Shown here in pieces: positions 1,266 through 54,759 of a DNA stretch of 64,000 nt. Source of the DNA: a virus. The notes under the pieces were generated by a model. It saw nothing but the letters and a program-made list of their open reading frames with translations, was not told where the DNA came from and ran no database searches. Both the position numbers and the translations under genes were made by a program. Positions within the stretch are counted from its first letter, which is position 1; every line of letters starts with the position of its first letter. The DNA lies in UHGV virus genome UHGV-0248979; one strand, written 5' to 3'.

Positions 1266-1300
1266 AAAAACAAAAAAGAAAGGGGAACCGAAGTTCCCCA
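1266..1300 (-). terminator. intrinsic terminator
   Basis: Hairpin GGGGAAC-CGAA-GTTCCCC preceded on plus strand by an A-run; just downstream of stop at 1312. Confidence 0.6.
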
Positions 1301-1311
1301 ATTATTAAACA

Positions 1312-1968
1312 TCACGCAAAAGGGGCAGAGCTTGTGAAAGCAAGATTGGGTGTCATGCCAGCTTTCCCTAATTTTTCATACAGGTAATTGAAAAATCTGA
1401 GATGGACCTCGTAGTGGCCAGTCGCTACTCGCTGGCCGTAAACTTCTACCAAGTCAGGCGAAAACTTAATATGGCAGTTTTGTCTAGAGAACAAAGGTTG
1501 TTGCACCCCACCCTTAATTAAGATGCGATACTTTTTACCATCGTCTGTTACGGCGTGAAGAATATTTGTATTGAAATGGAAATAGATAGAAGGGTTAAAA
1601 CTCAACCAGTCGGCAGCATTGACTAGTAGGTCAGCTAACTTAACACCGATTTTGTCAAGTTCAGGCCCTTCAAACTTATGCATTAACCGCAGGAGAATTT
1701 CAGTAATAACCGTACCTGTAAGTAACTTGTCTCTATTAAGGCCAGGCGCAACCGCCAAAATGTCGCCATTATAAGTGCAGACAAGTGTGAATAAGTTGAA
1801 AGGCTGGTCTTGATAAAAATCGAAAACCAGGTCAGTATACGGATTAAAAGTTAAGAATTTCACCCCAATTATTTCATTAACGCAGGGTAAAAGTTCAACC
1901 TTCGCAGCCGGTTGAACTTCGTTGGCTTTAGTCTCGTTCTTTACAGTTTCTTTAGTTTTCGGTGCCAT
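1312..1968 (-). CDS. hypothetical protein
   Basis: 218-aa ORF, SD AGGAG upstream of ATG, hairpin terminator downstream; no motif recognised. Confidence 0.5.
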   Translation of the reverse strand: MAPKTKETVKNETKANEVQPAAKVELLPCVNEIIGVKFLTFNPYTDLVFDFYQDQPFNLFTLVCTYNGDILAVAPGLNRDKLLTGTVITEILLRLMHKFEGPELDKIGVKLADLLVNAADWLSFNPSIYFHFNTNILHAVTDDGKKYRILIKGGVQQPLFSRQNCHIKFSPDLVEVYGQRVATGHYEVHLRFFNYLYEKLGKAGMTPNLAFTSSAPFA

Positions 1969-1989
1969 GATATTACTCCTTCAGGTTGA

Positions 1990-2349
1990 TTAGTGTGTTA
2001 CAGTGTTAGTGATAAAACGCACATTCTTCTTGGTACGTTTAATGGACGTGTTTGCAACGTAGTCCAATGCGGACTCTACGTGAACGGTTACTGAGCAACG
2101 ACCCTTAACGGAATTAAAACTAATCTGATATTTCAGACGAATCGCATCAGCAACTTTCATCATAATCGGCAAGCTTAAACGTTCTACGCGTTCGTTCTTA
2201 ATAGATGAGATAACGGGTTGTGAAACTTTCGCAAGCTGGGCAAGCTCACGCTGGGTAATGTCTTTCGTGGTCAAATGACAAACTACGTAAGACAAATGAA
2301 GGCCAAATTTACGTTTTGCCAGAACGATGGAATTGTGATTGTAAGCCAC
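1990..2349 (-). CDS. XRE-type helix-turn-helix DNA-binding protein (candidate early regulator)
   Basis: 119-aa ORF with HTH-like ITQRELAQLAKVSQPVISSIKN; apparent GTG start at 2349 preceded by AGGAG; conserved upstream motif at 2398-2423. Confidence 0.55.
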   Translation of the reverse strand: MAYNHNSIVLAKRKFGLHLSYVVCHLTTKDITQRELAQLAKVSQPVISSIKNERVERLSLPIMMKVADAIRLKYQISFNSVKGRCSVTVHVESALDYVANTSIKRTKKNVRFITNTVTH

Positions 2350-2397
2350 GGTAATACTCCTTTAGGTTAACAAGTCGGTGTAAAGAGTTAATTGTAA

Positions 2398-2423
2398 CTC
2401 TCACCTAAGTAATATATATCTGA
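2398..2423 (-). promoter_or_regulatory. conserved promoter-like motif, copy 1 (candidate phage early promoter)
   Basis: Plus-strand CTCTCACCTAAGTAATATATATCTGA; on coding strand TCAGATATATATTACTTAGGTGAGAG, 48 nt upstream of start at 2349. Confidence 0.45.
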
Positions 2424-2462
2424 GAAAAAATAAAATATAGGTACCACCGTTGGGTGGTACCT
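2424..2462 (-). terminator. intrinsic terminator
   Basis: Hairpin GGTACCACC-GTTG-GGTGGTACC preceded by A-rich run; downstream of tmk stop. Confidence 0.6.
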
Positions 2463-2468
2463 AAGCGG

Positions 2469-3092
2469 TTAGTTTGCTAAAATGTACGTAACAATCTCTG
2501 CGGCTTTCAAACGGTAATCGTCATTCTGCGTTACCGGTAATAACGCGTGAAGACAACCGCCTTCTGTTAAGATGTGGTGCGCGAATCGATAACGGTCACG
2601 TAAACCATCCCAACATTGGTTGTCCTTTAGATACTTAACTGTAAGTACCTCATCATCCCAATTCTTACCTTGTTCTTCTACACGTTTCTTAAATCGTGTT
2701 AACGCTGTTGGGTAATCAACATCTGTCCAAACATAAAGGTCAGGAGTGTGGAAATGACGAGTTAGCTTACGTTGGAAAACCACATCCTTACCATCTGTCC
2801 CCTGATAAACGATCGTTGAAGGACAGAAGCGATCGAAAATAACGACATCGTACTCGTCAACAACATGGTCCAACGTGTGAAGGAAATCATCACACATCGC
2901 TTCAGCAATTTTTGTATTCGAAGCAGACTGTACAACCAAACTGCGTGCACGAATGCCCGCCTCGGTTTCAGATGTCGGATGGTTCCGAACGCAAACTTTT
3001 AATCCGGCGGATTCCAACATCGCTTTTACCATTTTACACAACGTTGATTTCCCAGAAAAGTCAGGACCATCAATAGACACTGTCTTAAGCAT
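2469..3092 (-). CDS. tmk: thymidylate (dTMP) kinase
   Basis: 207-aa ORF with N-terminal P-loop VSIDGPDFSGKSTL and downstream DRF motif, the thymidylate kinase arrangement; ATG at 3092 verified; terminator downstream. Confidence 0.7.
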   Translation of the reverse strand: MLKTVSIDGPDFSGKSTLCKMVKAMLESAGLKVCVRNHPTSETEAGIRARSLVVQSASNTKIAEAMCDDFLHTLDHVVDEYDVVIFDRFCPSTIVYQGTDGKDVVFQRKLTRHFHTPDLYVWTDVDYPTALTRFKKRVEEQGKNWDDEVLTVKYLKDNQCWDGLRDRYRFAHHILTEGGCLHALLPVTQNDDYRLKAAEIVTYILAN

Positions 3093-14625: not shown

Positions 14626-17343
14626 ATGGACGATATTAGTAAATTAACGGGCGACCCCGCCGTAGCTGCAATTCTTCGTAAAACTACGGGCCCAGCACCC
14701 CAGCAACAACGCGGTACGCGTAGCGAGGGTGGTTCTACGCCAACACGTCAGGAACTTGCAGGAATTGTAAGTTCGCGTATTCGTACTATCAAAAATGCGG
14801 AACGTATCTTTGATGCGTTACCTGAACTCGAAACGATTGTTACCATTGCAACTTCGAGCTTGCTGTCGACAAAAGACTTAATCAACACCACGTTGATTTA
14901 CGACAACATCGCAGACATTCCAATTGACTTACGTAATGACTTACTGACACCAACGCGTGATTATCATGATAACGTACGTCAATTACCTAAGAAATTATAT
15001 CAGTGGATTTACGACGCGTTAAAAACAAAAGGCGCAAGTCCAGTGATGATAATCTCGGACAATGGATTTGACCAGCTGTTCGGTTTAGACACCAAAATCG
15101 CTACCGAATCCATGCGTCGTTCTCAAGCCGCGTATTTCGAAGAACAACTCGGTATTCTCGGCCCAATCAACTCGCAAGATGACGGGCAACGCGTGGGTGT
15201 GGAATCTATTCTGAGTCGTGTCCGTGGACCTGTTAAAGGACCACAATCACTGAAAATCAATTTCAGTAACCATGATAAGATGTTCTCAGATAAGTTCGAA
15301 ATGGACATCTCGATTACCGACAACCCACGTATCACGTTACTGCCCCATGCTTATCGTCGAATCGCGCATGAGAACGCTCGTACTGGTCTCTACGGCCAAT
15401 TAGAGCAAGCCGCATATGAAAAGCCTGCCACACCGACAGGTGCTGCGCCGTATGAAGTTAATCAACAGTTTAACGATCGTCAGCGCGATGCGGCTGAAAA
15501 AGGTTTCATTAACTTAGGTGATCTGAACGAAGCGTACAAAAGTACACCAAAAACTCAGCTTTATGGTAACATCCCGATTATTTCGATGGATGAAAACAAC
15601 CAGATCGACTATTTCGAATGTTTACTCCCTGCTGAGTCTACCGCCCCGTTGGTTATTGGTGACGACGTTCGTAACCCTATTGGGTTTCTGACCATTATTG
15701 ACGATATGGGTAACTTCATCAACTCACGTTCCTCACTTTACGGGGACGCGAACTTTATGAACTACCTTAATAACGACGGCATGACAGACAGTATTATCAA
15801 CCGCTCTAATTTAGGCTTGGGTAATACCTCTCGTATAACGCCTGAAATCGCCAACCGTTTAAGTGCACGTTGCAGCGAGATTGCTGAGAACGAATTTACC
15901 CGCGCTTTAAGCCAGGCGTTGGGTGGTGCCGAAATCAGCATGAAAATTACCGAAACCTTCGGTCGTATTCTACTGGCACGTCACCTCGCAAAACGTCACA
16001 CACAGGTTGTCTATATCCCGGTTAATAACTTATGCTACTTTGCAACCGACTTTAACGAAGATGGTATCGGGGTGTCTATTACCGAACGTTCCTTTATCAT
16101 CTCCACGGTCAGGATGGCGCTGTTGTTCGCAACAATGAACTCTTCAGTGTTGAACTCAGCGCGTCACATGCAATATGACATTGAGCTATCGCCGGACGAT
16201 ATGAACGGTCAGAAAACAGTTGACCAAGTTAAATCGGATATCCTCAACTCCTATAATCGTCGTTTACCGATGTGGGGCGATATCAACGATGCCTGGTCAA
16301 TGGGGGCTAATGCCGGGATTGCATTTAACGTGACGGGTAACGAATACTACGCCAGTCATAAAGTGTCAGTTTCGGACACAACGCCTGAGTATAAAGTGCC
16401 CGATCAGCAAATCGATGAAAACTTACTCCGCCGTACTTGCCACATCGCGTGTGTAGACCCGGATCTTGTTTTGACACCAGAAAACCTGGAATTTGCTTCG
16501 CAGATTTATTCCAAGTCACTGCTGGTGACTCAACAAATCGTGAAGAAACAAGAAATCCTGTCTACGCCGTTAACACGCTACGTGACAAACAGTTTGCAAG
16601 CCTCTCCTAAGTTACAAGCAGAATTGATTCGTATTATCGTTGAGTATATTCGCAATCAAAATCCTAACGTAACAGGTGAAGACTTGACCAAGCAAACGTC
16701 AGAGTATCTGGCGAAGTTCATCAATGGCATGAAAGTCACCTTACCACCACCAGACACATCAGCTTCTTCTTCACAAGCGGATCTGTTCGATAAACGCTAT
16801 GAGTTCATTGAGAAACTGGCGGATCTGGTTGTTACCGACGACATTTCAAATATGCTTCAGAATGAAGGTATCGAAATGCAACCTGATGATCTCAAGACGA
16901 TGATTAAATCGTTCTATACGCGTAACTGGCTACGCAATCAGGGCATCGAAACCGATCTGTTTGATTTGATCTACGACGAAGATAAACGTGGCGAAAACGT
17001 CAAGATGATTTCTGATGAAATTGCATCGGCATCTAAAACGTTGATTCAGTTAGCAAAGCGTGCAACAGGTAAAGTTGAAACCTTAGCAAAAGCGGCTGAT
17101 TTGAATCCTGAGTACGCCAATAACTTCGGCGGGGGTAGCGACTTTGGTGGCGGGTCTGAAGACGACGGCGGCTTAGGTGGCGATGAGGACTTAGGTGGTG
17201 ACGATCTGGGTGGTGATGAAGACATGGACATGTCTGATGAAGAAACGACGGAAACCGATACGACAACGGAAGAAGACGTTTCTGCTGAAGACACGGACGA
17301 GACGGATACCGGTACAGACGACAACACCGACGAAACTCTCTAA
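14626..17343 (+). CDS. large hypothetical protein with acidic low-complexity C-terminal tail
   Basis: 905-aa ORF, ATG at 14626 verified; last ~70 aa are Gly/Asp/Glu/Thr-rich repeats; followed by bidirectional terminator. Confidence 0.55.
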   Translation: MDDISKLTGDPAVAAILRKTTGPAPQQQRGTRSEGGSTPTRQELAGIVSSRIRTIKNAERIFDALPELETIVTIATSSLLSTKDLINTTLIYDNIADIPIDLRNDLLTPTRDYHDNVRQLPKKLYQWIYDALKTKGASPVMIISDNGFDQLFGLDTKIATESMRRSQAAYFEEQLGILGPINSQDDGQRVGVESILSRVRGPVKGPQSLKINFSNHDKMFSDKFEMDISITDNPRITLLPHAYRRIAHENARTGLYGQLEQAAYEKPATPTGAAPYEVNQQFNDRQRDAAEKGFINLGDLNEAYKSTPKTQLYGNIPIISMDENNQIDYFECLLPAESTAPLVIGDDVRNPIGFLTIIDDMGNFINSRSSLYGDANFMNYLNNDGMTDSIINRSNLGLGNTSRITPEIANRLSARCSEIAENEFTRALSQALGGAEISMKITETFGRILLARHLAKRHTQVVYIPVNNLCYFATDFNEDGIGVSITERSFIISTVRMALLFATMNSSVLNSARHMQYDIELSPDDMNGQKTVDQVKSDILNSYNRRLPMWGDINDAWSMGANAGIAFNVTGNEYYASHKVSVSDTTPEYKVPDQQIDENLLRRTCHIACVDPDLVLTPENLEFASQIYSKSLLVTQQIVKKQEILSTPLTRYVTNSLQASPKLQAELIRIIVEYIRNQNPNVTGEDLTKQTSEYLAKFINGMKVTLPPPDTSASSSQADLFDKRYEFIEKLADLVVTDDISNMLQNEGIEMQPDDLKTMIKSFYTRNWLRNQGIETDLFDLIYDEDKRGENVKMISDEIASASKTLIQLAKRATGKVETLAKAADLNPEYANNFGGGSDFGGGSEDDGGLGGDEDLGGDDLGGDEDMDMSDEETTETDTTTEEDVSAEDTDETDTGTDDNTDETL

Positions 17344-19771: not shown

Positions 19772-21547
19772 TTAACGGCCAATCTTCGCAATGTCTTCTT
19801 CGGTTGCTTGGATCAAGTCGTTGAGTTTTGGATTACGTACCATCACCAGTTGGGTATTCGTCTTCATATACGGATTGAGAATGCCCGATTTGAACGGTGA
19901 TGATTTCGGAATGTAATACACGTTACCACATTCCAGATGAGATGCAGAGGCATGTTTTGTCCGGTCGTTAAGGTTAACCGTCTTACCGCCCTTGCTGCTA
20001 CGTTTTGATTCTGTTTCTGTCTGGCTGATAGCATGGGTTGAAACCCCCAGCACCATAGACTCTGTAGAAGCGTTGAAATAACTTACACCGCCGTTACCGG
20101 TAATGTTCCGCAATACCAGGCTGGTTACAATGTCTTTATTCAACGCACTGCGTATCATGTTCGCACAAGACTCCGGTGTTCTATTCTCCGTTTGTCCCAA
20201 GTGAAAACGAATCGCAGCAATGGTAGGTGTAAAACCACGCTCACCTAATAACAGGTAATCTGTTACGGTCAGACGTTTTCCATACATTGACGGAATATCG
20301 CCTTGTTTCGTGAGACGCGTTCTCACCATCAACTTCGTCGCGTACCAGAAGAAATCAAACATATCCATATCGTCCGGGATATCGGGATCTGACATCATTA
20401 ACTCGCCACGGAATGTTGAGTTAACGTAGCGTTCACACTCCGTATAGTGTTTCGTCATGCTGTGTGCCAGTTCAATATCAGACGGTTTAAGTCCAACAAT
20501 ACTTCTCCCCAAAATCTCCCGCCAAATTGCGGAGGAATTCAGGTTTACAACATCGTCCTCCATTGCAAGTTCATTAATAGCGGTAAACAACGGCGGTAAA
20601 GGAACAACGTTGCCGTTTTTAATCGCTTGTTTTCCGCAATAATAGTGCGCTGCTTTAAAGAATGCAGAAATCGCTACGAGTAATAAGTGTTCGTTTTGAT
20701 CCCATCCCGCTTTATCGAGATTCGGTAAAGCCTCTGCAGGAACCGTCACTACGTACATAATCGCCCGATTATGCTTAGGTTCACCTGAACCGATTACTAC
20801 TTTTTTATCGAGATCGATTTCAGGTACTTTGAATGCAGGATATATCTCTACATCCACACCAGTATAACGTTTGATGGCTTCCTTAAATCCATAACGTCCG
20901 AATAACCAGTACATTAACGGTTTCTCGTCCGTATCAGGATGTGTGGCGTTTTTGGCTTTAAACAAATTGTTTGTTCCGGGCAAGAACAACTCTTCTTTCT
21001 TCCCATTCACTAAAATACGTACCGGGTGCTTACAGAATTTTAGTGACGCTTTACGTTTAAAGTCAAAATTAACAAACACCCCGCCATGCTCACGACAGAT
21101 ACCCGGCTGATGAATAACAGGCGCAACGTGGTACGTTGTCCCGTAATAGTTCATCAACCCACCACGACGAATGAATGGCAAGTTAATCGGTCTTGAGATC
21201 GGCCTTGAGTCGCCAGGAATACGGAACGACGACATGACCATATACGCATCGGTATTCGCTATAGACATCACCCCACGACGTTTATCCATTCTGCTGCTCT
21301 CTGAGCGAGACAACTTGTAGATAAAAGTTTCGAACGGCGACATTAAACGAACACCCAATACAGCCAAGCCTTCAGGAACACGCGGATTCTCTACAGGATG
21401 GTAATCTAGCTCACGTTTCAAGATACGATGCACACGATCGTGAATACCATCTTTGGCTTGTGTATATCCGACTCCTTCCGCAATCGCGCGGTTAAAGGGT
21501 ACTATTTTACCACTCTCTTTAAGCTTTTTGATTGCATCTTTAAACAC
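19772..21547 (-). CDS. hypothetical protein
   Basis: 591-aa ORF; apparent GTG start at 21547 with AAGGAG 6 nt upstream. Confidence 0.5.
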   Translation of the reverse strand: MFKDAIKKLKESGKIVPFNRAIAEGVGYTQAKDGIHDRVHRILKRELDYHPVENPRVPEGLAVLGVRLMSPFETFIYKLSRSESSRMDKRRGVMSIANTDAYMVMSSFRIPGDSRPISRPINLPFIRRGGLMNYYGTTYHVAPVIHQPGICREHGGVFVNFDFKRKASLKFCKHPVRILVNGKKEELFLPGTNNLFKAKNATHPDTDEKPLMYWLFGRYGFKEAIKRYTGVDVEIYPAFKVPEIDLDKKVVIGSGEPKHNRAIMYVVTVPAEALPNLDKAGWDQNEHLLLVAISAFFKAAHYYCGKQAIKNGNVVPLPPLFTAINELAMEDDVVNLNSSAIWREILGRSIVGLKPSDIELAHSMTKHYTECERYVNSTFRGELMMSDPDIPDDMDMFDFFWYATKLMVRTRLTKQGDIPSMYGKRLTVTDYLLLGERGFTPTIAAIRFHLGQTENRTPESCANMIRSALNKDIVTSLVLRNITGNGGVSYFNASTESMVLGVSTHAISQTETESKRSSKGGKTVNLNDRTKHASASHLECGNVYYIPKSSPFKSGILNPYMKTNTQLVMVRNPKLNDLIQATEEDIAKIGR

Positions 21548-21557: not shown

Positions 21558-22568
21558 TTACGTTAGCATCCCTATAAATGCGACACCCGCCGCCAAATAC
21601 GCAGGGACAGATTTAAATAGGTCTGAGCCGTCCTTACGAATGTAAGAACGCGTCTCGTAGAATTCTTTACGCGCCTCAGCCCGTGACTTCGCTTCCAATT
21701 CCTGTTGTTTGAATGCTAAAGTCAATCGCTCCTTTTCTAAAGCCATGCTCTGTAGTTGTTTCTTGTGTTCCAATTCTAGCTTGTCTTTTGCCGAATCCAA
21801 GCTTTCTAATTTTTCTTTGTACTGCTCCTCTAAACGTTGCTTAATCTCAAAGAGACCGGGAACTGCTTCTTGCCATCGAAACGCGTCCGCCGCTGCCTCA
21901 TCCTTAAATAATCTAAATGGTGAAGTAATGTCGTCAAATTCAAAATGAATCATACGACTCCCTTCCACCCTCGTACCACCTCCTATTATCATGTAAACGC
22001 CTGGTTCATAATAGCGAGACGTTATTGGCTCGATTTTCATTTTCGTGCCGTAGAAACGTAGCCACCGATAGTTGTCAGGCTCATCGTAGCGCTGCACAAC
22101 AACAACACCCAATGTAAATTCAGTGCGCTCACCTCCAGGGCGCGTGGTCGGGGGTTTACTATCTAAGCGTATTGGTGTTGTTGAGAAAGCAAAGCCTAAC
22201 TGCTTTAGTACAACCAAATCTCCTCGCAGCAACGCACCAACATCGTTTACTGCATACTCTAACGTCACCTCCCCTTTTTCTTTCAATTGGTCGCAAAAGC
22301 GAGAAAATTGTTTTCCCGGCAACAGTTCAGCAAACCCATTGAGATTCGCACATCTTCCGTACGATTGATACGTCACGTAAACGATAACCCCATGCTCATC
22401 AGCGGGGTTTTTCGAAGCATTTAAAATAAAGCTACCGCCACTGGTTTCAGTGACGTGAATAGGTACGCCAGTGTTATTTTCAAACGTAACGAGTTTCCTC
22501 AATCCAGACGTTTGATACAACGAGCGTTCAGAGATACTGGGCACCACATCGATATCAAGACGTTTCAT
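21558..22568 (-). CDS. hypothetical protein with coiled coil and C-terminal membrane anchor
   Basis: 336-aa ORF; charged coiled-coil segment then C-terminal hydrophobic VPAYLAAGVAFIGMLT; ATG at 22568 verified. Confidence 0.5.
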   Translation of the reverse strand: MKRLDIDVVPSISERSLYQTSGLRKLVTFENNTGVPIHVTETSGGSFILNASKNPADEHGVIVYVTYQSYGRCANLNGFAELLPGKQFSRFCDQLKEKGEVTLEYAVNDVGALLRGDLVVLKQLGFAFSTTPIRLDSKPPTTRPGGERTEFTLGVVVVQRYDEPDNYRWLRFYGTKMKIEPITSRYYEPGVYMIIGGGTRVEGSRMIHFEFDDITSPFRLFKDEAAADAFRWQEAVPGLFEIKQRLEEQYKEKLESLDSAKDKLELEHKKQLQSMALEKERLTLAFKQQELEAKSRAEARKEFYETRSYIRKDGSDLFKSVPAYLAAGVAFIGMLT

Positions 22569-22699
22569 GGGTGACCCAAGCTAAATTTTAATGATGTTAC
22601 ATATCTTTAGTTTAAACTGTATTTTTTCCATACATACTCCTTTAAAGCCAACTGACTGTCTCCCTTTAATAATATCTATCCAAAAAATAATAGAAAGAA

Positions 22700-25594: not shown

Positions 25595-27157
25595 ATGAAT
25601 AACAAAATGATGTTGATAACCGCCTTAGCCACATTATACGCTGAAAGTCTTCTGACCGATCCTGAAAAGGACCACGACATCATAAGAAAAGTGCTGTTAG
25701 AGGCTAAGCTTCCTGATTACGCAGAGGAAGGTGACGAACGTGCCGCCCTCGTCGAAATCAAGGATATCATCACATCCATCATAGACGGCGGTATGCCTTA
25801 CGACCACACAAACGTCATGAAACGTTTGAAACTGGCCACTACGCAAATACGTCCTCTATACGATACGATTACCAAATTCCTGGAAGATGATATTCCAGAA
25901 GAACCAGAAGCACGCATCGAGCATCTTAATCGCCAAGTAGCACAATACTACTTTCAGTTACGTCAAGCTATTCAAGGCGTACAACTGAAACAAAAATTGG
26001 GTCGTACGTTAGGCGCACTGAACGGTACCGAAACGCGCGTTGATTTACAAACGGCGCTCAACGACCTTAAGGATACCTTATCCACGTTCAGTGAACGCTC
26101 TCATAATAAGATTCCTTCTCTGGTAGGGGAATTGATTACTGATAATAAAGCACCTTTCGTGCACGTTTTCGACTCTATCAGTAAGAAAGCGGCAGGGAAC
26201 GGGTTGCGTACAGGCTGGAAAGCAATTAACCAGATGCTCGGTTGTAACAAAGGGATCACCGAAGAACTCTGGCTGATGCCTGCTCTCCCCTTTAACTGTA
26301 AGTCATTATTCAGTTTATTGCTCTCTATTAGCATTCCTGTTTTCAACACCCCAGAAAAAGTGATGGCGAATGTTAAAGGTGATCTACAACCGGTTATTCT
26401 AGATTTAAGTTTAGAAAACGAATTGGATGTTAACTTGGCTTACGCGTATCAGGCACTTTACGGACACTTTGAAGGTACAGCCCCGGTGATGGTTGCGCCA
26501 GAAACCGCAACTGACGAAGAAAAAGCGTCACATAATGCACAAATGTCAGACTACCTCTGTAGTAAGATGCGGGCGAACGGTTGGGAGTATATTTTCCAAA
26601 AACACACAAACTCCGATTTTAAAATTCACTATTTGAACGATTTGATTTTAGATTTAAAACGTCGAGGTTATCATGTAGCTGGAATACGCGGAGACTATTT
26701 CGGTACTATCAGCAAAGCAGGGCACGGTAACGGCATTGCGGGTAGCGACATTAAAGAAATTTATCGTATCGCACGAAACATCCAAGTGGTACGTAATCGT
26801 GGTTTCCTGTTAGCACCACACCAAATCTCACCAGAAGGCAAAAAATTAAAAGCACTCGACCCAGCAAGTTTCTGTAAGAACTTACCTGGTCGTGGTCTTT
26901 ACGACAACTGCTCTAGCTTAGACAACGAAGCTGACGGTGAGATGTATTTTAACAAACGTGTCGTCAACGGTCACAGCTATTTAGAAGTACAACGCGGTAA
27001 ACACCGTACCATTATCGATACCAAAGAAGCTTATCATTATACTGTAATACCTTTCCGTGATGTTGGCATTTTGCCATGGGATTGTGATAAAGAAGAAACT
27101 GTAACAGCCTCGTCGATTAACGTATTTACCGGCGGCATGGGTGACGAACTCTTTTGA
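25595..27157 (+). CDS. hypothetical protein
   Basis: 520-aa ORF; ATG at 25595 with AAGGA SD; isolated plus-strand gene followed by hairpins. Confidence 0.5.
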   Translation: MNNKMMLITALATLYAESLLTDPEKDHDIIRKVLLEAKLPDYAEEGDERAALVEIKDIITSIIDGGMPYDHTNVMKRLKLATTQIRPLYDTITKFLEDDIPEEPEARIEHLNRQVAQYYFQLRQAIQGVQLKQKLGRTLGALNGTETRVDLQTALNDLKDTLSTFSERSHNKIPSLVGELITDNKAPFVHVFDSISKKAAGNGLRTGWKAINQMLGCNKGITEELWLMPALPFNCKSLFSLLLSISIPVFNTPEKVMANVKGDLQPVILDLSLENELDVNLAYAYQALYGHFEGTAPVMVAPETATDEEKASHNAQMSDYLCSKMRANGWEYIFQKHTNSDFKIHYLNDLILDLKRRGYHVAGIRGDYFGTISKAGHGNGIAGSDIKEIYRIARNIQVVRNRGFLLAPHQISPEGKKLKALDPASFCKNLPGRGLYDNCSSLDNEADGEMYFNKRVVNGHSYLEVQRGKHRTIIDTKEAYHYTVIPFRDVGILPWDCDKEETVTASSINVFTGGMGDELF

Positions 27158-27261
27158 GTCTGGGGAGCTTCGGCTCCCCCTATAACCCCTTATGCGTCTC
27201 GAAAAGCAAAAAAAAACAGAAGGCTATTAATTATGAACGGAAAACAACTACCGAACTAAGT

Positions 27262-27290
27262 AGGGGGTGTTGCTACCACCCCCTTTATTA
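27262..27290 (+). terminator. hairpin plus T-run (H3-type)
   Basis: GGGGGTG-TTGCTAC-CACCCCC followed by TTTATT; ~105 nt downstream of the plus gene stop and abutting small ORF copy 1 stop. Confidence 0.5.
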
Positions 27291-27299
27291 GTTAGTAAC

Positions 27300-27461
27300 T
27301 TATCTCCTTAGAGGTGGTTGCTGAACATTGTGGTTGTTAACCGTTTTCGGTGCCGCAACGAGGCCGAGACGAACATATTCGTCCATGCGTTGGTTAAACT
27401 GAATTTGTTTTTCACGATTTCGCATCGCGGTATTGAACATCTGTATTTGATATTCGTTCAT
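27300..27461 (-). CDS. small protein, copy 1 of a tandem paralogue family (53 aa)
   Basis: Below ORF-track size cutoff. MNEYQIQMFNTAMRNREKQIQFNQRMDEYVRLGLVAAPKTVNNHNVQQPPLRR; AAAGG SD upstream; H3-type hairpin right after the stop. Confidence 0.4.
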   Translation of the reverse strand: MNEYQIQMFNTAMRNREKQIQFNQRMDEYVRLGLVAAPKTVNNHNVQQPPLRR

Positions 27462-27520
27462 TTTTCATTACCTTTCGTAATGTTGTAAAAACGTCAACAA
27501 CTTTATGTGTTGACACCGTA

Positions 27521-27610
27521 CAGCAGAGACTGGCGGAACAGCCTCTGCTGCTTTAACTTCTCTTTCGAAAAGTTAAAGCTATGAAAAGGGGTGGTGGTGC
27601 ACCCCTTTTT
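27521..27610. repeat. three-hairpin module, copy A (candidate structured RNA / regulatory element)
   Basis: H1 27521-27550 (CAGCAGAG...CTCTGCTG), H2 27550-27579 (GCTTTAACTT-loop CTCTTTCGAA-AAGTTAAAGC), H3 27584-27609 (AAAAGGGGTG...CACCCCTTTT). Confidence 0.45.
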
Positions 27611-27685
27611 ATTATACCTACGACCACCATCTCGGCAGGTTACTGTACGAGGAGGAGAGGCGTGTCAGCGCCTCTCCTTTATTTG

Positions 27686-27859
27686 TTAGTAGTGTTCACT
27701 CCTCTTTTCGGTGAATATCTGCGTGAAACGGTTGGTAGACGGTTTTAACCGTTTATCCATGCCGAGCTGACTATACTTGTAGATACGTTGCTGTAAATTG
27801 GTCTTTGCTGCACTCTGTTCTGCAAGCATTTTGTCAGTAAAGTAGTAACCATTGTTCAT
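27686..27859 (-). CDS. small protein, copy 2 of tandem paralogue family (57 aa)
   Basis: MNNGYYFTDKMLAEQSAAKTNLQQRIYKYSQLGMDKRLKPSTNRFTQIFTEKRSEHY; AAGAGGG SD upstream; hairpin 27654-27677 right after stop; shares C-terminal consensus with copy 3. Confidence 0.45.
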   Translation of the reverse strand: MNNGYYFTDKMLAEQSAAKTNLQQRIYKYSQLGMDKRLKPSTNRFTQIFTEKRSEHY

Positions 27860-27949
27860 GGTAGGCCCTCTTTGTAGGGTGATTAAAGAAATCCACTACG
27901 GAAACGTAATGGTGTTGTAAAGGGGTGTGACAGCACCCCTTTATTTTAT

Positions 27950-28120
27950 TTAGTAGTTACTTCTCCTTTCGGTGAAGATTTGTACTCGAGGATTATTAGA
28001 AGGTTTAAGCCTTTTATTTAATCCTAGCTGTTGAACTTCTCTTAATCGTTCATTAAACCTCGCTTGTTCTGCATAGCTGTTTGAAATAGAAGTAAAGATA
28101 CGTGAATTGTTGTTAGTCAT
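27950..28120 (-). CDS. small protein, copy 3 of tandem paralogue family (56 aa)
   Basis: MTNNNSRIFTSISNSYAEQARFNERLREVQQLGLNKRLKPSNNPRVQIFTERRSNY; GAGG SD upstream; hairpin 27919-27942 right after stop. Confidence 0.45.
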   Translation of the reverse strand: MTNNNSRIFTSISNSYAEQARFNERLREVQQLGLNKRLKPSNNPRVQIFTERRSNY

Positions 28121-28175
28121 GTTAAAACCTCACACGAGTTGGGGATTAAGCTATTACGTGACTGTAATAGCGACA

Positions 28176-28264
28176 AGTAGGGACTGCTGGTACAGCCCCT
28201 ACTGCTTTATCTTCTCTTTCGAAAAGATAAAGCGCCTAAGGGGAGTGCGCCAACACACCCCTTT
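28176..28264. repeat. three-hairpin module, copy B
   Basis: H1 28176-28203 (AGTAGGG...CCCTACT, loop ACTGCTGGTACAGC), H2 28204-28233 (GCTTTATCTT-same loop-AAGATAAAGC), H3 28238-28264; same order and spacing as copy A with compensatory stem changes. Confidence 0.45.
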
Positions 28265-28270
28265 AGGTTG

Positions 28271-28321
28271 TTACCTTCTTTCAACTATCAACTGGATGTT
28301 TCTTGGGTATGCAACCTTGGG
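28271..28321 (-). pseudogene. decayed fourth copy of the small-protein family (C-terminal remnant)
   Basis: Minus frame ending at stop 28271-28273 reads ...PKVAYPRNIQLIVERR, matching the family C-terminus (PRVQIFTERR); no in-frame start, upstream frames disrupted; stop abuts an H3-type hairpin. Confidence 0.3.
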
Positions 28322-28449
28322 CTACGTTAACGTTGGTCGCGGTATTGCACTAACCCTTCGCTGAAACTCAAGTTGTTTTGTTGACAACTCGTTTAACCGT
28401 CGAAACAGCAGTTCATGTTTCGTGAACTCATCTCCTATGTCGAATTTGC

Positions 28450-28493
28450 GAAAATAAATAAAGTGTACCCCTAATCCCGAAAAGGATTAGGGG
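28450..28493 (-). terminator. intrinsic terminator
   Basis: CCCCTAATCC-CGAAAA-GGATTAGGGG preceded by A-rich run; immediately downstream of stop at 28500. Confidence 0.6.
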
Positions 28494-28499
28494 TTGCTT

Positions 28500-29315
28500 T
28501 TATTTAGTCGCTACGTATTGAACATGGCCACATTCCTTACATTCCACGTTGGCTTTCGGGATTGTCAGGCCGGTTAAAGGAACACGTATTTGATACTGTG
28601 CTCCACATTCTTCACAAACAAAATCGTATTCTGGATAAACACGACCTTCTAATTTCTCTTCTTTCCTTAGTGTGCCTGCTAAGAACAGCATTGCGCCTAA
28701 CGCTTCATTAATCTGCTGTTCCCATTCTCCGTCTAACGGGTAAGCGAACGCGCGAGTCAACGTTTCCACCATCTCTGGAGTATTACTTACATAAACGTGT
28801 TTCAGTTCAAACTCAACACGTTCTAAACCAAACAATACGCGCGCCGTCACCGTAACATTATCCAACGTTTGTGCAAACACAACGGGATTATCGTCACCGT
28901 GCATTGCGAATAACGCAGCACGTTCGTATTCGATATCACTCCACTCGATTAGTTCTACAGATTTAATCGCTTCCGCAATCTCAGCATTACCGAACGTTTC
29001 GTGTTCCAATAATCCGACGATAACTTCATTCAACGATTTCAATTGCTGTAATCGAATCGTAGGATCGGTATTCACGATAAGTAAACGATGCATTCTGGAT
29101 TTCAACCAGTTAATCGTTCCTTCTACACCGCCCCTAAACGAGCAGATGCTTATCACTTCAGGTTCACGAAGGATAAGAGTAGATTTTCCTGCTGCCGTAC
29201 TCAAGTAGAGTTTAAAAGACTTATCGTTAGACTCTGCAACGATGGCAATGTCTTCAGTTGGAACGAAGTTTTCATTGCTCAGCCCACGCGGAAAATAATC
29301 TTTAATAGTAATCAT
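28500..29315 (-). CDS. hypothetical protein with C-terminal CxxC...CxxC zinc ribbon and degenerate P-loop
   Basis: 271-aa ORF; C-terminus CEECG...CKECG; N-terminal LSTAAGKST resembles a non-canonical Walker A; terminator directly downstream. Confidence 0.5.
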   Translation of the reverse strand: MITIKDYFPRGLSNENFVPTEDIAIVAESNDKSFKLYLSTAAGKSTLILREPEVISICSFRGGVEGTINWLKSRMHRLLIVNTDPTIRLQQLKSLNEVIVGLLEHETFGNAEIAEAIKSVELIEWSDIEYERAALFAMHGDDNPVVFAQTLDNVTVTARVLFGLERVEFELKHVYVSNTPEMVETLTRAFAYPLDGEWEQQINEALGAMLFLAGTLRKEEKLEGRVYPEYDFVCEECGAQYQIRVPLTGLTIPKANVECKECGHVQYVATK

Positions 29316-29369
29316 CTTTTATGCTCCAATTAATAAAAAAATTAAGGGCACCCGAAGGTGCCTTATACA

Positions 29370-29513
29370 TTAACCACGACCAGTGCACTGTGCAACGGAA
29401 TTACCGTTGTCGATGCAAGTGTCGTAGCCTTTGTCGATATCCAGGTACAGGCAACCCAGAACAACAGCGATAACAACAGCGAAGATAGCTTTTTTGTGTT
29501 TTACAGAAATCAT
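29370..29513 (-). CDS. small lipoprotein (47 aa precursor)
   Basis: Below track cutoff. MISVKHKKAIFAVVIAVVLGCLYLDIDKGYDTCIDNGNSVAQCTGRG: signal peptide with lipobox VLGC; AGGAG SD 8 nt upstream; terminator downstream; conserved promoter-like motif upstream. Confidence 0.5.
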   Translation of the reverse strand: MISVKHKKAIFAVVIAVVLGCLYLDIDKGYDTCIDNGNSVAQCTGRG

Positions 29514-29558
29514 GATATAACTCCTAATTAGGTATTCGATAAATGAGTATTACGTAAA

Positions 29559-29584
29559 CTCTCACCTAGGTAATATATATCTGA
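29559..29584 (-). promoter_or_regulatory. conserved promoter-like motif, copy 2
   Basis: Plus-strand CTCTCACCTAGGTAATATATATCTGA, 45 nt upstream of the lipoprotein start (29513). Confidence 0.45.
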
Positions 29585-29702
29585 AATCTTTTTGAATCCA
29601 TATACCCTCTAGAACGCTCTAAAACGCATTCTAACGCAATTTTCTTTTTAAAGGGTAATTAGTCGTCTTAATGGAGAAATGACTTCTGTGTGGCGTTTAG
29701 GG

Positions 29703-29748
29703 ATAAATAAAAGGTATTCCCGTTACCCACAGAGGTAACGGGAAGTTT
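29703..29748. terminator. hairpin terminator
   Basis: 11-bp stem TTCCCGTTACC...GGTAACGGGAA with A-rich and T-rich flanks; adjacent to stop at 29749. Confidence 0.6.
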
Positions 29749-30549: not shown

Positions 30550-30581
30550 TAACAAATCCTTTAGGTTACGGACAACATAAT

Positions 30582-35301: not shown

Positions 35302-35390
35302 TGGCTTGTTCCTTCGTTATAGTCATATCACAGGCGCGAAATGAAAAAAAAATAAAAGGGAACCGAAGTCCCCTTTTACGGTTAAACTAC

Positions 35391-36515: not shown

Positions 36516-36516
36516 T

Positions 36517-37068: not shown

Positions 37069-37121
37069 TTCTATTCTCCTAAAGGTCGAAAAAAATAAAG
37101 CCCTCCGAAGAGGGCTTTAAC

Positions 37122-37763
37122 TTACAAGTTTTCAAAGAAAGTAACAACTGCTTCCGAAAGGCTAAGTTCAAATAGTCCGAACGTGTTCTCTTCTTCGAAT
37201 TCTTTACTGGCTATTAGGGGTAATAATTTAAAACAATCGATAGCACCATCAGTAACTTTCAACACACGTGGGATTCTTTTCATCCCTTCTACAAGTTCTG
37301 ATACCGTTTCCATAACAGCTTCCGCCGATTTTTCAATGGTATTATACACAGCATCGTTCTCTGTTGGTGCAATTAAATGAAAGAAACAAACAGAATCGTA
37401 CATTCCATTTTCTTTTTCACGCAACGCTACGTGGCTATCAAGAAATGCATGGTACGTTACTCCGTCGTATTCGGCACTCCCGATCCCGTTGGTTTTAAGT
37501 TTGGCGTTCAGTTCGTTAGCAAAGCTGTCCAGTTTATCTTGGTTTATGGCTTTGAAAACAAACTCGCGTGTACCGACTAATAAGCCACCCTTCGTTTGCT
37601 CTTTAGGTTTCTTACCAGAAAGTAAGCGCAACCAGGTAGAAATAGAAATCACTTCTACCGGATTTAAAGTAACAACTTTACTGTTCGGTGCCACCATCGT
37701 AACGACACCTTTCTCCATAGACACAACACCATCAACAAAATCAGTTAAATTAATGCGGCTCAT
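37122..37763 (-). CDS. hypothetical protein (candidate early gene)
   Basis: Track gives 37122-37790 (TTG); ATG at 37763 preceded by AGGAGA preferred; conserved promoter-like motif at 37815-37838. Confidence 0.5.
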   Translation of the reverse strand: MSRINLTDFVDGVVSMEKGVVTMVAPNSKVVTLNPVEVISISTWLRLLSGKKPKEQTKGGLLVGTREFVFKAINQDKLDSFANELNAKLKTNGIGSAEYDGVTYHAFLDSHVALREKENGMYDSVCFFHLIAPTENDAVYNTIEKSAEAVMETVSELVEGMKRIPRVLKVTDGAIDCFKLLPLIASKEFEEENTFGLFELSLSEAVVTFFENL

Positions 37764-37814
37764 GATATTTCTCCTAAACGTAATAAACAAGTCGTAAAGA
37801 GATTATTGTATAAT

Positions 37815-37838
37815 CCCACCTAGGTAATATATATCTGA
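37815..37838 (-). promoter_or_regulatory. conserved promoter-like motif, copy 3
   Basis: Plus-strand CCCACCTAGGTAATATATATCTGA, 51 nt upstream of ATG 37763; flanking CAAGTCG / TAAAGAG / ATTGTA blocks shared with copy 1. Confidence 0.45.
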
Positions 37839-37852
37839 AATTATTTTTAATC

Positions 37853-37900
37853 GAAAAAAAAAAGAAAAGAGAGAACCACCCTGTAATAGGGTGGTTCTCT
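37853..37900 (-). terminator. intrinsic terminator downstream of paralogue A
   Basis: A-run then 13-bp stem AGAGAACCACCCT...AGGGTGGTTCTCT. Confidence 0.65.
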
Positions 37901-37917
37901 TACTAAACAATCAGAGA

Positions 37918-53439: not shown

Positions 53440-54759
53440 TTACGTAATGTGGATCGATGGATTAAATTCGTGTACCACAGTCTCTTTACCGTGCATCGCG
53501 GCCATTGCCACGGACATAACGTTAGAGAACGCCGAGGATATATCCGCAGCGATTGCACGAGGTTCTTCCCCTTTATTCGCAGACGAACACGCTGTGCAGG
53601 TGTCGATGTGGCCATACTGACATAAGATGGGTCGGCGTAACCGCACCACCTTACCTAACTGCTGCTTTAAATATTCTTCAGACAGTGGTGTCAGTTTACC
53701 ATTAACCATCGCATTCATCCCAACGTAACGTTTTACGTTATCTTCGGTAATCACAACCGGGTACGTTAGTTTCGTTCCGCAGTCGCCAGGGACGATTCGG
53801 TGGTTCTGGAAAATCATCTGGATAATACGTACCTGCTCACCCCCTTTCGCTGTTTCCGCACCACGAGAGAATGAACCTTCACGAATAGAGTTGAATTTCG
53901 CAACCAGGTTTTCCATCCCCGCCTTATCAACCTCAACTAACGCGTTCGGAATGAGCGTATAATGCCCCCCTTCCTGAAAAGACGATTCAATACCGTACAT
54001 CAGCATTAATTTACGTCGACGCATCCGTGATTTCGGCGAGTTATAAAACTCAATAGATTGGTCACCTGACAACCACTCTTTGTCTAACTCATCCAACGCT
54101 TTTTCAATCTTAACGATAACGGCAGGATCGTCTAATTCATCCTTGTGCTTCAACAGCAACGCATCGCGGATTTTATACGCATCAGGATGCACCGTAAGGC
54201 TTCGTAACGTACCGGTTGGTGCAATACCTGACGTGAGTGGAGCGAGTTCGTGTAAGCCGCTTACGAAGCGTTCGATCATACTCGGTCGAATCGCACCTTC
54301 GTTTTCTGGCTCATCGGATTCATGGTCTAAACAACGCCGATGCATCTCTTTGCGGTATTCCAACGGGTTTTGTGAAATCGCCAGATAGGGTAAACGTGTA
54401 CCGAAAGCATACCAGATAACAATCCAGTTAAAAACGTATCGTCCTACTGTCGTGGGGATAGGACCTTCTAAACCGGGATAGTCGTCGGGACGGAGTTCGA
54501 ACTGTTCTTCAGGAATAAACAGCTCCTGATCCTTTACACCATCGGTAATCGGTTCCCAACTGCCCTTGCCGTCTTCTACAGCGTAATAATGCGGTAAGCC
54601 GTCAATGTACGTAATATCAAACGCTTCGGGTTCTTCACGCCCAGTTGGAAACACCGACATGTTAAAGATAGCAATACGCCAGACCAAGCGACGCCATGCT
54701 TCGGCTTTACATGCCGCTACTAAGAACTCAAACCTCGTCATCGTGCTCTGCCTCCTCAA
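53440..54759 (-). CDS. hypothetical protein
   Basis: 439-aa ORF; contains KLMLMYG, faintly like polymerase motif B, but no YGDTDS-like motif C. Confidence 0.5.
   Translation of the reverse strand: MRRQSTMTRFEFLVAACKAEAWRRLVWRIAIFNMSVFPTGREEPEAFDITYIDGLPHYYAVEDGKGSWEPITDGVKDQELFIPEEQFELRPDDYPGLEGPIPTTVGRYVFNWIVIWYAFGTRLPYLAISQNPLEYRKEMHRRCLDHESDEPENEGAIRPSMIERFVSGLHELAPLTSGIAPTGTLRSLTVHPDAYKIRDALLLKHKDELDDPAVIVKIEKALDELDKEWLSGDQSIEFYNSPKSRMRRRKLMLMYGIESSFQEGGHYTLIPNALVEVDKAGMENLVAKFNSIREGSFSRGAETAKGGEQVRIIQMIFQNHRIVPGDCGTKLTYPVVITEDNVKRYVGMNAMVNGKLTPLSEEYLKQQLGKVVRLRRPILCQYGHIDTCTACSSANKGEEPRAIAADISSAFSNVMSVAMAAMHGKETVVHEFNPSIHIT

What the first reader, a model, noticed from the sequence alone, without database searches (positions are those of the whole stretch)
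2398..2423. Conserved 26-bp motif with TATATATTAC core upstream of three minus-strand genes at fixed spacing
Coding-strand TCAGATATATATTAC(C/T)TAGGTG(A/G)G occurs at 2398-2423, 29559-29584 and 37815-37838, each 45-51 nt upstream of a start codon (HTH regulator, small lipoprotein, hypothetical 37122-37763). Copies 1 and 3 also share downstream blocks (TACAAT, CTCTTTAC, GACTTGTT), so a whole promoter plus 5' UTR cassette is repeated. From memory, phiKZ early promoters for the virion RNA polymerase have an AT-rich TATATTAC-type consensus; if that recollection holds, these would mark immediate-early genes.
Basis: partly seen in the sequence, partly recalled or inferred. Interest (0 to 1): 0.6.

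Follow-up and report, generated by a model that had tools for sequence, protein, structure and literature searches.

The report
Early promoters of a giant phage
The three repeated 24-26-base motifs are very probably the start signals that a giant SPN3US-like phage's own injected RNA polymerase uses to switch on its first genes; this is an expected feature of this phage family and not a new kind of element.

Summary
TCAGATATATATTACYTAGGTGRG occurs three times on the minus strand (2400-2423, 29561-29584, 37815-37838); shuffles give none. Each copy is intergenic, follows a terminator and lies 45-51 nt before a start codon.

The window comes from an SPN3US/Asesino-like jumbo phage. It encodes split multisubunit RNA polymerase subunits, including a homologue of a virion-packaged one.

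The core plus spacing, TATATTAC-6 nt-G, equals that of all seven sites I read in phiKZ, whose published early-promoter motif is TATATTAC. The longer motif fits the published 201phi2-1, OBP, N1M2 and AR9 early consensus. The 21-mer is invariant in 13 related genomes, found only in jumbo-phage contigs (plus one 7-kb fragment), and absent from 185,579 bacterial and archaeal genomes.

Additions:
- The three copies belong to a discrete "class A" subset of a larger promoter family. A "class B" variant (AGATAGATATTATCT) precedes the non-virion polymerase genes in SPN3US, and one class-B-like site lies at 22662-22682.
- Class A carries a leader cassette of about 50 nt whose first bases form a hairpin starting at the predicted +1. 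The hairpin is kept through compensatory changes and is inconsistent in phiKZ and class B.

Verdict: a new member of a known kind, of modest interest.

The parts
2400..2423 (-). Class A early-promoter core, copy 1 (TCAGATATATATTACTTAGGTGAG). The predicted transcription start is G at 2402.
   Evidence: The start is predicted by the TATATTAC-6N-G rule.
2438..2463 (-). Terminator-like hairpin just upstream of copy 1, ending the thymidylate kinase gene unit.
   Evidence: ORF 2469-3092 is 64% identical to SPN3US thymidylate kinase.
2350..2402 (-). Predicted 53-nt leader of copy 1. It contains a 5'-terminal hairpin (2383-2402, GAGAGTTA/TAACTCTT), the pre-SD box CGACTTGTT (2369-2377) and the Shine-Dalgarno sequence AAAGGAG.
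   Evidence: hairpin from +1, 8 pairs. (box).
1282..2349 (-). Transcription unit of copy 1: HTH protein gene 1990-2349 (GTG start), ORF 1312-1968, and terminator 1282-1299.
29561..29584 (-). Class A early-promoter core, copy 2. The predicted start is G at 29563.
29514..29563 (-). Predicted 50-nt leader of copy 2. Its 5' hairpin is weak (GAGT...ACTC, -2.7 kcal/mol).
29347..29513 (-). Transcription unit of copy 2: a 47-aa membrane or lipoprotein-like ORF (29370-29513) followed by terminator 29347-29362.
29717..29744 (-). Terminator-like hairpin upstream of copy 2.
37815..37838 (-). Class A early-promoter core, copy 3. The predicted start is G at 37817.
37870..37900 (-). Terminator directly upstream of copy 3, ending the internal-head-protein gene.
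   Evidence: ORF 37918-39183 is 58% identical to the SPN3US internal head protein.
37764..37817 (-). Predicted 54-nt leader of copy 3. It contains a 5'-terminal hairpin (37799-37817, GGGATTAT/ATAATCTC) and the pre-SD box CGACTTGTT (37786-37794).
   Evidence: A compensatory C-G to T-A change relative to the 97%-identical relatives L149 and L126 is visible.
37096..37763 (-). Transcription unit of copy 3: a 213-aa hypothetical gene (37122-37763) followed by terminator 37096-37119.
22662..22682 (-). Class-B-like family member (TGGATAGATATTATTAAAGGG, predicted start G at 22662). It lies after the major-head-protein terminator and heads the unit that contains non-virion RNA polymerase subunit gene 19772-21547.
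   Evidence: It is the positional counterpart of SPN3US 72485.
53440..54759 (-). Homologue of virion RNA polymerase subunit beta'M (SPN3US gp42), part of the enzyme proposed to read the motif.
   Evidence: 73% aa identity. PMC5105663 for the virion mass spectrometry.

Best explanation
The three motifs are early promoters read by the phage's own virion-packaged multisubunit RNA polymerase (vRNAP), which enters the cell together with the DNA.

Proposed recognition and start. An AT-rich stretch (ATTAAAAATAATTT), the block CAGATA and the core TATATTAC, centred near -10, are recognised. Transcription starts at the invariant G six bases after TTAC, at 2402, 29563 and 37817.

Transcription units. Each promoter heads a short unit bounded by terminators: an HTH regulator plus one ORF; a 47-aa membrane peptide; and a 213-aa protein.

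Leader. The transcript begins with a leader of about 50 nt. Its first roughly 20 nt fold into a hairpin that leaves no single-stranded 5' end. I infer that this hairpin protects the mRNA from 5'-end-dependent decay by RppH and RNase E. A conserved box and a strong Shine-Dalgarno sequence follow.

What is shown: the motif, its placement, its conservation, its identity with the phiKZ-type core and spacing, and the presence of vRNAP genes.
What is inferred: the polymerase assignment, the exact start, early timing, and the role of the hairpin.
For: 1. Three exact copies against 0 in shuffles.
2. All three are intergenic, co-oriented with the next gene and downstream of terminators.
3. The phage is SPN3US-like. 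It encodes homologues of vRNAP beta'M and of non-virion polymerase (nvRNAP) subunits.
4. The published consensus sequences match: phiKZ TATATTAC; 201phi2-1 TTTRARR_BTATATTACDWHDGTG; OBP/N1M2 TTTCARRYAKATATTATYWAAGTG; AR9 AAATATATATTAT-(6N)-G+1 with mapped early, chloramphenicol-insensitive transcripts.
5. Seven of seven TATATTAC sites in the first 50 kb of phiKZ have a G 6 nt downstream, and five of them start GA.
6. In SPN3US the six class A copies are all on the gene strand and intergenic. Five of the six have leaders of 50-54 nt.
7. The 21-mer is invariant in 41 instances from 13 genomes. It occurs only in contigs of 107-246 kb plus one 7-kb fragment.
8. The 21-mer has 0 hits in 185,579 bacterial and archaeal genomes.
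9. Conservation peaks on the motif while the flanks diverge. The promoter plus leader are 87.5% identical to SPN3US, against about 73% for coding DNA.
10. No sigma-70-like site was called at any copy.
11. Hairpin: in 35 unique leaders the mean MFE of the first 24 nt is -5.23 kcal/mol, against -1.48 +/- 0.24 in dinucleotide shuffles. The +1 base is paired in a hairpin of at least 5 bp in 71%, against 21 +/- 7% in shuffles. The anchoring peaks at +1.
Against: 1. No transcript 5'-end or time-course data exist for any SPN3US-like phage in the searched literature, so polymerase, start site and timing rest on analogy.
2. Only one of the five vRNAP subunit genes lies in the window.
3. Taken singly, the window's three leaders do not fold better than shuffles (z = -1.74, +0.59 and -0.10), and the copy 2 hairpin is weak.
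4. Some inverted repeats extend 2 nt upstream of the predicted +1 (GTGAGAG/CTCTCAC). This would fit a start a little further upstream or a role at the DNA level.
5. The pooled leaders are related by descent, so the pooled statistics overstate independence.
6. The class A flanks are invariant over 21-26 nt, more than the phiKZ core. An overlapping regulator site could also explain this.
Confidence: 0.8

Rival explanations
1. The extended invariant part of the motif (YTAGGTGAG plus the inverted repeat just downstream) is an operator for a phage regulator. One candidate is the HTH protein encoded behind copy 1, which would switch a small regulon, including its own gene, off or on. The promoter function would be only the TATATTAC part. 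This reading can coexist with the main explanation.
For: Copy 1 drives an HTH protein gene. Class A is invariant over 21-26 nt, whereas class B promoters vary after the core. An inverted repeat lies at +1 to +20, a typical operator position, and some repeats extend upstream of +1.
Against: The arms of the inverted repeat differ in sequence between promoters of one genome, for example AGAGTTA/TAACTCT, AGATTGC/GTAATCT, ATAGAAG/ATCTATC and AGCGTTA/TAACGCT in SPN3US. The pairing is kept by compensatory changes. That fits a folded strand, not one sequence-specific protein. The HTH protein is only 40% identical between the window and SPN3US, while the motif is identical.
Confidence: 0.08
2. The motifs are promoters for the non-virion phage polymerase (middle or late) rather than for the injected virion polymerase.
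For: The polymerase assignment is untested here. The same genomes carry a second, related motif class (class B) that precedes the nvRNAP genes and must therefore itself be read early. One of the two classes could in principle belong to another enzyme.
Against: Described nvRNAP promoters look different: phiKZ late T-3ATG+1, a phiKZ middle AT-rich or TACT motif near -22 to -24, and AR9 late AACA-(6N)-TA/G. The core and spacing equal those of the seven phiKZ sites I read, which carry the published phiKZ early-promoter motif. The downstream genes are small, fast-evolving, non-structural genes.
Confidence: 0.06
3. The motifs are strong host sigma-70 promoters, with TATATT or TATTAC as a -10 box and an AT-rich UP element, used by the host polymerase at the start of infection.
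For: The core resembles an extended -10 element, and the upstream region is AT-rich like an UP element.
Against: No sigma-70-type site (two hexamers with 16-18 nt spacing) was called at any of the three copies. The strict conservation covers positions that sigma-70 does not read (CTAGGTG between -6 and +1). The 21-mer is absent from all 185,579 bacterial and archaeal genomes scanned. phiKZ development is reported as unaffected by rifampicin.
Confidence: 0.03
4. The repeat is not a transcription signal but the scar or boundary of a mobile or recombining gene cassette.
For: Each copy sits in a self-contained terminator-promoter-gene-terminator module. The genes behind the motif are poorly conserved or replaced between relatives.
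Against: The fixed orientation and the fixed distance of about 50 nt to a Shine-Dalgarno sequence and start codon in 39 instances point to expression signals. So does the identity with the phiKZ-type core, and no inverted or direct terminal repeats flank the units (for copy 2). Modular exchange of early genes is compatible with the promoter reading.
Confidence: 0.03

Closest known systems
phiKZ early promoters, assigned in the literature to the virion RNA polymerase (Ceyssens et al. 2014, not held in the library; Wicke et al. 2020, PMC8244752; Putzeys et al. 2024, PMC10914365)
   Same: Identical TATATTAC core. A G lies exactly 6 nt downstream, mostly followed by A. The upstream region is T/A-rich with CAG just before the core (tttaaaCAG-TATATTAC in phiKZ, TTTCAGATA-TATATTAC here). 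Sites are intergenic, co-oriented with the next gene and present in several copies per genome.
   Different: Here 21-26 nt are invariant, including CAGATA and YTAGGTGAG. The leader carries a consistent 5'-terminal hairpin, which only 2 of the 7 phiKZ sites examined have. The hosts are enterobacteria. There is no experimental 5'-end mapping.
Predicted early promoters of 201phi2-1, OBP and Klebsiella phage N1M2 (PMC7058600, Table 2)
   Same: The layout is nearly the same position by position: TTT-[CA]RR-..-(T/K)ATATTA(C/T)-4N-GTG. Class A fits the 201phi2-1 form and class B fits the OBP/N1M2 form.
   Different: Those phages are described with one consensus each. SPN3US-like genomes hold two discrete variants side by side.
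AR9 early promoters, AAATATATATTAT-(6N)-G+1 (PMC5312081)
   Same: The same ATATATATTA(T/C) core, the same 6-nt spacer and the same G start. AR9 transcripts were mapped, appear at 5 min and do not need new protein synthesis.
   Different: AR9 infects Bacillus, has uracil-containing DNA and lies outside Chimalliviridae. The last core base is T rather than C.
5'-terminal stem-loops that stabilise E. coli mRNAs (for example the ompA leader; from established knowledge, not tested here)
   Same: The hairpin begins at or within 2 nt of the 5' end and leaves no single-stranded 5' tail.
   Different: The function is inferred only; no half-life data exist. In some leaders the inverted repeat extends upstream of the predicted +1.
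Phage N4 virion RNA polymerase promoters (PMC4496689)
   Same: The concept of an injected, virion-carried polymerase that reads a small set of early promoters associated with a hairpin.
   Different: The N4 enzyme is single-subunit. From my own knowledge, not checked in a paper here, its promoter hairpin lies upstream of the start and is recognised as DNA. Here the inverted repeat is downstream of the predicted start and varies in sequence.

Membership tests
phiKZ-type (Chimalliviridae and relatives) virion-RNA-polymerase early promoter | The genome encodes a split multisubunit virion RNA polymerase. | tested here: met
   ORF 53440-54759 is 73% identical to SPN3US gp42 (vRNAP beta'M, detected in virions by mass spectrometry). 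nvRNAP subunit homologues lie at 19772-21547, 60703-62802 and 62802-63974. The other four vRNAP subunit genes lie outside the window.
phiKZ-type (Chimalliviridae and relatives) virion-RNA-polymerase early promoter | A highly conserved AT-rich core of about 10 nt centred near -10 (TATATTAC in phiKZ). | tested here: met
   An exact TATATATTAC is present in all three copies. For the literature consensus.
phiKZ-type (Chimalliviridae and relatives) virion-RNA-polymerase early promoter | A conserved start nucleotide (G) 6 nt downstream of the core. | tested here: inconclusive
   The sequence fits. A G 6 nt after TTAC is invariant in 41 instances and in 7 of 7 phiKZ sites, and the leader hairpin is anchored there. 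The real 5' end has not been mapped.
phiKZ-type (Chimalliviridae and relatives) virion-RNA-polymerase early promoter | A T/A-rich element upstream of about -19. | tested here: met
   ATTAAAAA(T/G)(A/T)ATTT precedes the core in most of the 41 instances. phiKZ is described as having a T-rich motif upstream of -19.
phiKZ-type (Chimalliviridae and relatives) virion-RNA-polymerase early promoter | Sites are intergenic, co-oriented with the downstream operon and present in many copies across the genome. | tested here: met
   Window: three class A sites plus one class-B-like site, all on the gene strand and after terminators. SPN3US whole genome: 6 class A sites and about 16 class B or intermediate sites, essentially all on the + strand and intergenic. 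The full genome of the window's own phage was not available.
phiKZ-type (Chimalliviridae and relatives) virion-RNA-polymerase early promoter | Transcripts appear immediately after infection, independently of host RNA polymerase (rifampicin) and of new protein synthesis. | not testable with these tools
   No transcriptome or 5'-end data for SPN3US-like phages were found in the library.
Bacterial sigma-70 promoter | -35 and -10 hexamers separated by 16-18 nt. | tested here: not met
   The consensus scan calls no such site at any of the three copies.
Phage N4 vRNAP hairpin promoter | A short DNA hairpin with conserved sequence upstream of the start site, read by a single-subunit polymerase. The hairpin definition is from my own knowledge and was not checked in a paper here; the single-subunit nature of the N4 polymerase is stated. 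| tested here: not met
   The inverted repeat lies at +1 to +20, downstream of the predicted start, and varies in sequence. The phage's RNA polymerase genes are of the multisubunit beta/beta' type.
Known structured RNA families (Rfam) | A match to a curated covariance model at its gathering score. | tested here: not met
   There are 0 matches in the whole window.

The most novel reading that the evidence does not exclude
SPN3US-like phages may run a two-tier early programme.

Class A is a 26-nt element, 21 nt of it identical in all 41 collected instances. It is fused to a modular leader of about 50 nt (5'-terminal hairpin, CGACYWT box, strong Shine-Dalgarno sequence). It drives a handful of short, fast-evolving, terminator-bounded 'immediate-early' genes.

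Class B is a looser variant (AGATAGATATTATCT) with short, unstructured leaders. It drives the non-virion polymerase and other early genes.

The two classes could differ in strength, in timing, or in mRNA stability inside the early infection vesicle, or they could be read by different forms of the injected polymerase. The two-class split, and a 5'-terminal hairpin as a regular part of vRNAP transcripts, did not turn up in the papers I could search.
Probability: 0.3. Interest if true: 0.45.

Novelty: new member of a known kind. Interest (0 to 1): 0.3.

Why it matters
How the injected virion polymerase of nucleus-forming jumbo phages finds its promoters is still unknown. [quoted passage not shown]

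This element gives a sharply defined template for in-vitro transcription and structural work in enterobacterial phages. Its 21-nt core is identical in all 41 instances from 13 genomes. The conserved block runs to about 26 nt, with an invariant start nucleotide.

It also marks the first genes expressed. These are small, rapidly changing proteins, including an HTH regulator and a membrane peptide, and they are the likely host-takeover or anti-defence candidates.

The practical value is for annotation. The motif lets early units be called directly from the sequence of uncultivated SPN3US-like phages.

Tried and rejected
I replaced it with the 21-mer.
2. MAFFT plus RNAalifold on the first 24 nt of 35 leaders predicted no pairs. 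The loops differ in length, so the 3' arms fall out of register. I used per-sequence folding with dinucleotide shuffles and a sliding-offset test instead.
3. Whole-leader folding of the three window leaders gave weak z-scores (-1.74, +0.59, -0.10). The hairpin claim therefore rests on the pooled, positional evidence only.
4. Ceyssens et al. 2014, the primary phiKZ promoter paper, is not held. The supplements of the two phiKZ TSS papers are not held either. I read phiKZ sequence directly instead.
5. A literature search for the SPN3US-type motif string found nothing, and no SPN3US transcriptome paper was found.
6. Rfam gave no hit in the window.
7. The repeat finder around copy 2 showed no flanking terminal repeats.
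8. The sigma-70 reading was rejected.
9. The operator reading was down-weighted because the arm sequences differ within one genome.

Full report
**Observation.** Reading the three sites and searching the window confirms the motif. TCAGATATATATTACYTAGGTGRG occurs exactly three times, all on the minus strand, at 2400-2423, 29561-29584 and 37815-37838. There were no matches in 100 dinucleotide-preserving shuffles. The 10-mer core alone with one mismatch is not significant (5 found, 3.6 expected), so the signal is the long motif. The blocks shared by copies 1 and 3 (TACAAT, CTCTTTAC, GACTTGTT) are present. No sigma-70-like site is called at any copy, and each copy lies downstream of a terminator-like hairpin (2438-2463, 29717-29744, 37870-37900).

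**What the window is.** Megablast finds only distant relatives (about 73-75% nt identity): Salmonella phage SPN3US and Erwinia phages Asesino and phiEaH2. The window is collinear, in inverted orientation, with SPN3US from about 30 to 97 kb. It encodes the following:
- the major head protein, a DnaB-like helicase and a DNA polymerase;
- homologues of non-virion RNA polymerase (nvRNAP) subunits (19772-21547, 60703-62802, 62802-63974);

Two IMG/VR contigs are 95-97% identical to the window (3300045988_113438 and 3300029126_000001). The lineage is therefore known only from metagenomes.

**Comparison with described promoters.**
- PMC7058600 (Table 2) lists the phiKZ early promoter as TATATTAC, 201phi2-1 as TTTRARR_BTATATTACDWHDGTG, and OBP/N1M2 as TTTCARRYAKATATTATYWAAGTG.
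- The AR9 study mapped early transcripts to AAATATATATTAT-(6N)-G+1. It showed that they appear at 5 min and do not need protein synthesis. It also states that phiKZ and phiR1-37 start 6 nt after the consensus.
- A review states that such a motif can be found upstream of presumed early operons in every polymerase-encoding jumbo phage.
- The window motif TTTCAG-ATA-TATATTAC-CTAG-GTG fits these position by position.
- As a direct check, the first 50 kb of phiKZ contain seven TATATTAC sites. All are on the gene strand, all are intergenic, all are preceded by tttaaaCAG-like sequence, and all have a G exactly 6 nt after TTAC (five GA, two GC).

By this rule the predicted starts are G 2402, G 29563 and G 37817. 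The leaders are then 53, 50 and 54 nt long.

**Distribution and conservation.**
- The 21-mer CAGATATATATTACYTAGGTG has 38 exact matches in IMG/VR. All but one lie in contigs of 107-246 kb from about a dozen jumbo phages; the other lies in a 7-kb fragment.
- It has no match in one genome each of 185,579 bacterial and archaeal species.
- Together with the window this gives 41 instances from 13 genomes.
- Alignment of the orthologous intergenic regions shows identity peaking on the motif while the flanks diverge.
- The promoter plus leader are 87.5% identical to SPN3US over 70 non-coding nt, against about 73% for coding DNA.
- The genes behind the motif are poorly conserved. The HTH protein is 40% identical at the protein level, and 37122-37763 and 28500-29315 have no tblastn hit in SPN3US.
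- In 39 instances the distance from the predicted start to the start codon clusters around 50 nt (median 51).

**Transcription units.** Terminator scans bound three short units:
- HTH gene 1990-2349 plus ORF 1312-1968, ending at terminator 1282-1299;
- the 47-aa peptide gene 29370-29513, ending at terminator 29347-29362;
- gene 37122-37763, ending at terminator 37096-37119.

These are typical early-gene modules.

**A larger family with two classes.** A scan of the complete SPN3US genome gave two groups.
- Class A: six copies with TATATATTACYTAGGTGAG.
- Class B and intermediates: about sixteen sites with the related core AGATAGATATTATCT, or close variants, followed by a G at the same distance. 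Essentially all are on the gene strand and intergenic. One site (4426) is intermediate between the two classes.
- Class B sites precede all the nvRNAP subunit genes of SPN3US: 15613 and 15706 before the unit containing 17704; 28968 before 29014/31251; 72485 and 72683 before the unit containing 73754. The literature describes these genes as early, vRNAP-transcribed genes in phiKZ.
- Both classes begin GA at the predicted +1 and +2.
- The exact class B 15-mer recurs several times per genome in the same jumbo contigs.
- The window holds one class-B-like site, at 22662-22682. It lies after the head-protein terminator, at the position orthologous to SPN3US 72485.

**The leader cassette.** The first bases of class A leaders form a hairpin that starts at the predicted +1.
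- In 27 of 35 unique leaders the hairpin starts at +1, and in 33 of 35 it starts within +1 to +3.
- Over the first 24 nt the mean MFE is -5.23 kcal/mol, against -1.48 +/- 0.24 in dinucleotide shuffles. The +1 base is paired in a hairpin of at least 5 bp in 71% of leaders, against 21 +/- 7%.
- In a sliding-offset test the anchoring peaks at +1.
- Arm sequences differ while pairing is kept (AGAGTTA/TAACTCT, AGATTGC/GTAATCT, AGCATTG/CAATGCT, ATAGAAG/ATCTATC). Between the window and its 97%-identical relatives, copy 3 shows a C-G to T-A double change.

Caveats on the hairpin:
- Taken singly, the three window leaders are not better than shuffles, and the copy 2 hairpin is weak.
- Some repeats extend 2 nt upstream of +1.
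- The pooled leaders share ancestry.

SPN3US class B leaders are short and fold no better than background (-3.6 against -4.0 kcal/mol). Only 2 of the 7 phiKZ sites have such a hairpin. The hairpin is thus a property of the class A cassette. I infer, without any test, that it shields the 5' end from 5'-end-dependent decay; a role at the DNA level is not excluded.

**Rivals.**
- Host sigma-70 promoter: no -35/-10 architecture, conservation at positions sigma-70 does not read, and absence of the motif from bacterial genomes.
- Operator for the HTH protein: the arm sequences differ within one genome. An overlapping regulator site could still explain the invariant YTAGGTGAG.
- nvRNAP promoter: described nvRNAP motifs are different.
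- Cassette scar: contradicted by the fixed orientation and fixed spacing to the translation signals.

**Verdict.** Polymerase, start site and timing remain inferred, because no transcript data exist for this phage group in the searched literature. This is a new member of a known kind, the phiKZ-type vRNAP early promoter. Two modest additions are the A/B split and the hairpin leader. Interest is about 0.3.

Noticed in passing
window 22632-22682 (-): A class-B-like promoter (TGGATAGATATTATTAAAGGG, predicted start G 22662) lies right after the major-head-protein terminator. A Shine-Dalgarno sequence and a 16-codon mini-ORF (MEKIQFKLKICNIIKI) follow, ahead of gene 21558-22568 and nvRNAP subunit gene 19772-21547. 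SPN3US has two class B sites (72485, 72683) in the matching gap.
   Followed up: partly
window 29608-29637 (-): There are three head-to-tail 10-nt units, GCGTTAGAAT / GCGTTTTAGA / GCGTTCTAGA, followed by GGGTAT. They lie 25-55 nt upstream of promoter copy 2. The block GCGTTT(T/G)AGAG..TAGAGGGT is conserved at the same place in SPN3US and in several other genomes. It may be a binding site for a regulator; its function is unknown.
   Followed up: partly
window 2369-2377 (-) and 37786-37794 (-); SPN3US 65456, 94281, 114031, 223319, and also 23832, 167593, 224198: A conserved box lies 15-25 nt before the Shine-Dalgarno sequence in class A leaders. It reads CGACTTGTT in the window clade, AATCGACYAT in SPN3US and TTGACYATCAAGGA in the Erwinia-type genomes. 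In SPN3US the same box plus Shine-Dalgarno sequence also precedes genes that have no class A promoter, so it is a separable module. It could be a translation element, a processing site or a second promoter. It remains unexplained.
   Followed up: partly
L124 about 15686-15783 (SPN3US 165686-165783): One SPN3US class A leader is 77 nt long. Between the 5' hairpin and the start codon it contains a GC-rich hairpin followed by a T-run (GGCTACCTTCGGGTAGCC TATTCTTTTTT). This could be an attenuator inside an early leader.
   Followed up: no
L129 and L156 (phiEaH2-type genomes): A class A promoter with a strong 5' hairpin (GAGCATTGAATGTCTCAATGCT) is followed by at least 78 nt without a recognisable Shine-Dalgarno sequence and start codon. 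It may drive a non-coding RNA or a gene with a long leader.
   Followed up: no
window 1990-2349, 28500-29315, 37122-37763 compared with SPN3US: Genes directly behind class A promoters evolve much faster than the promoters. The HTH protein is 40% identical at the protein level, and two other genes have no tblastn hit in SPN3US, whereas the 21-nt promoter core is 100% identical.
   Followed up: partly
window 27000-38000: Sigma-70-like consensus sites are somewhat fewer than in shuffles (14 against 19.7 +/- 3.7), while terminator-like hairpins are enriched (27 against 9.9 +/- 3.1).
   Followed up: no
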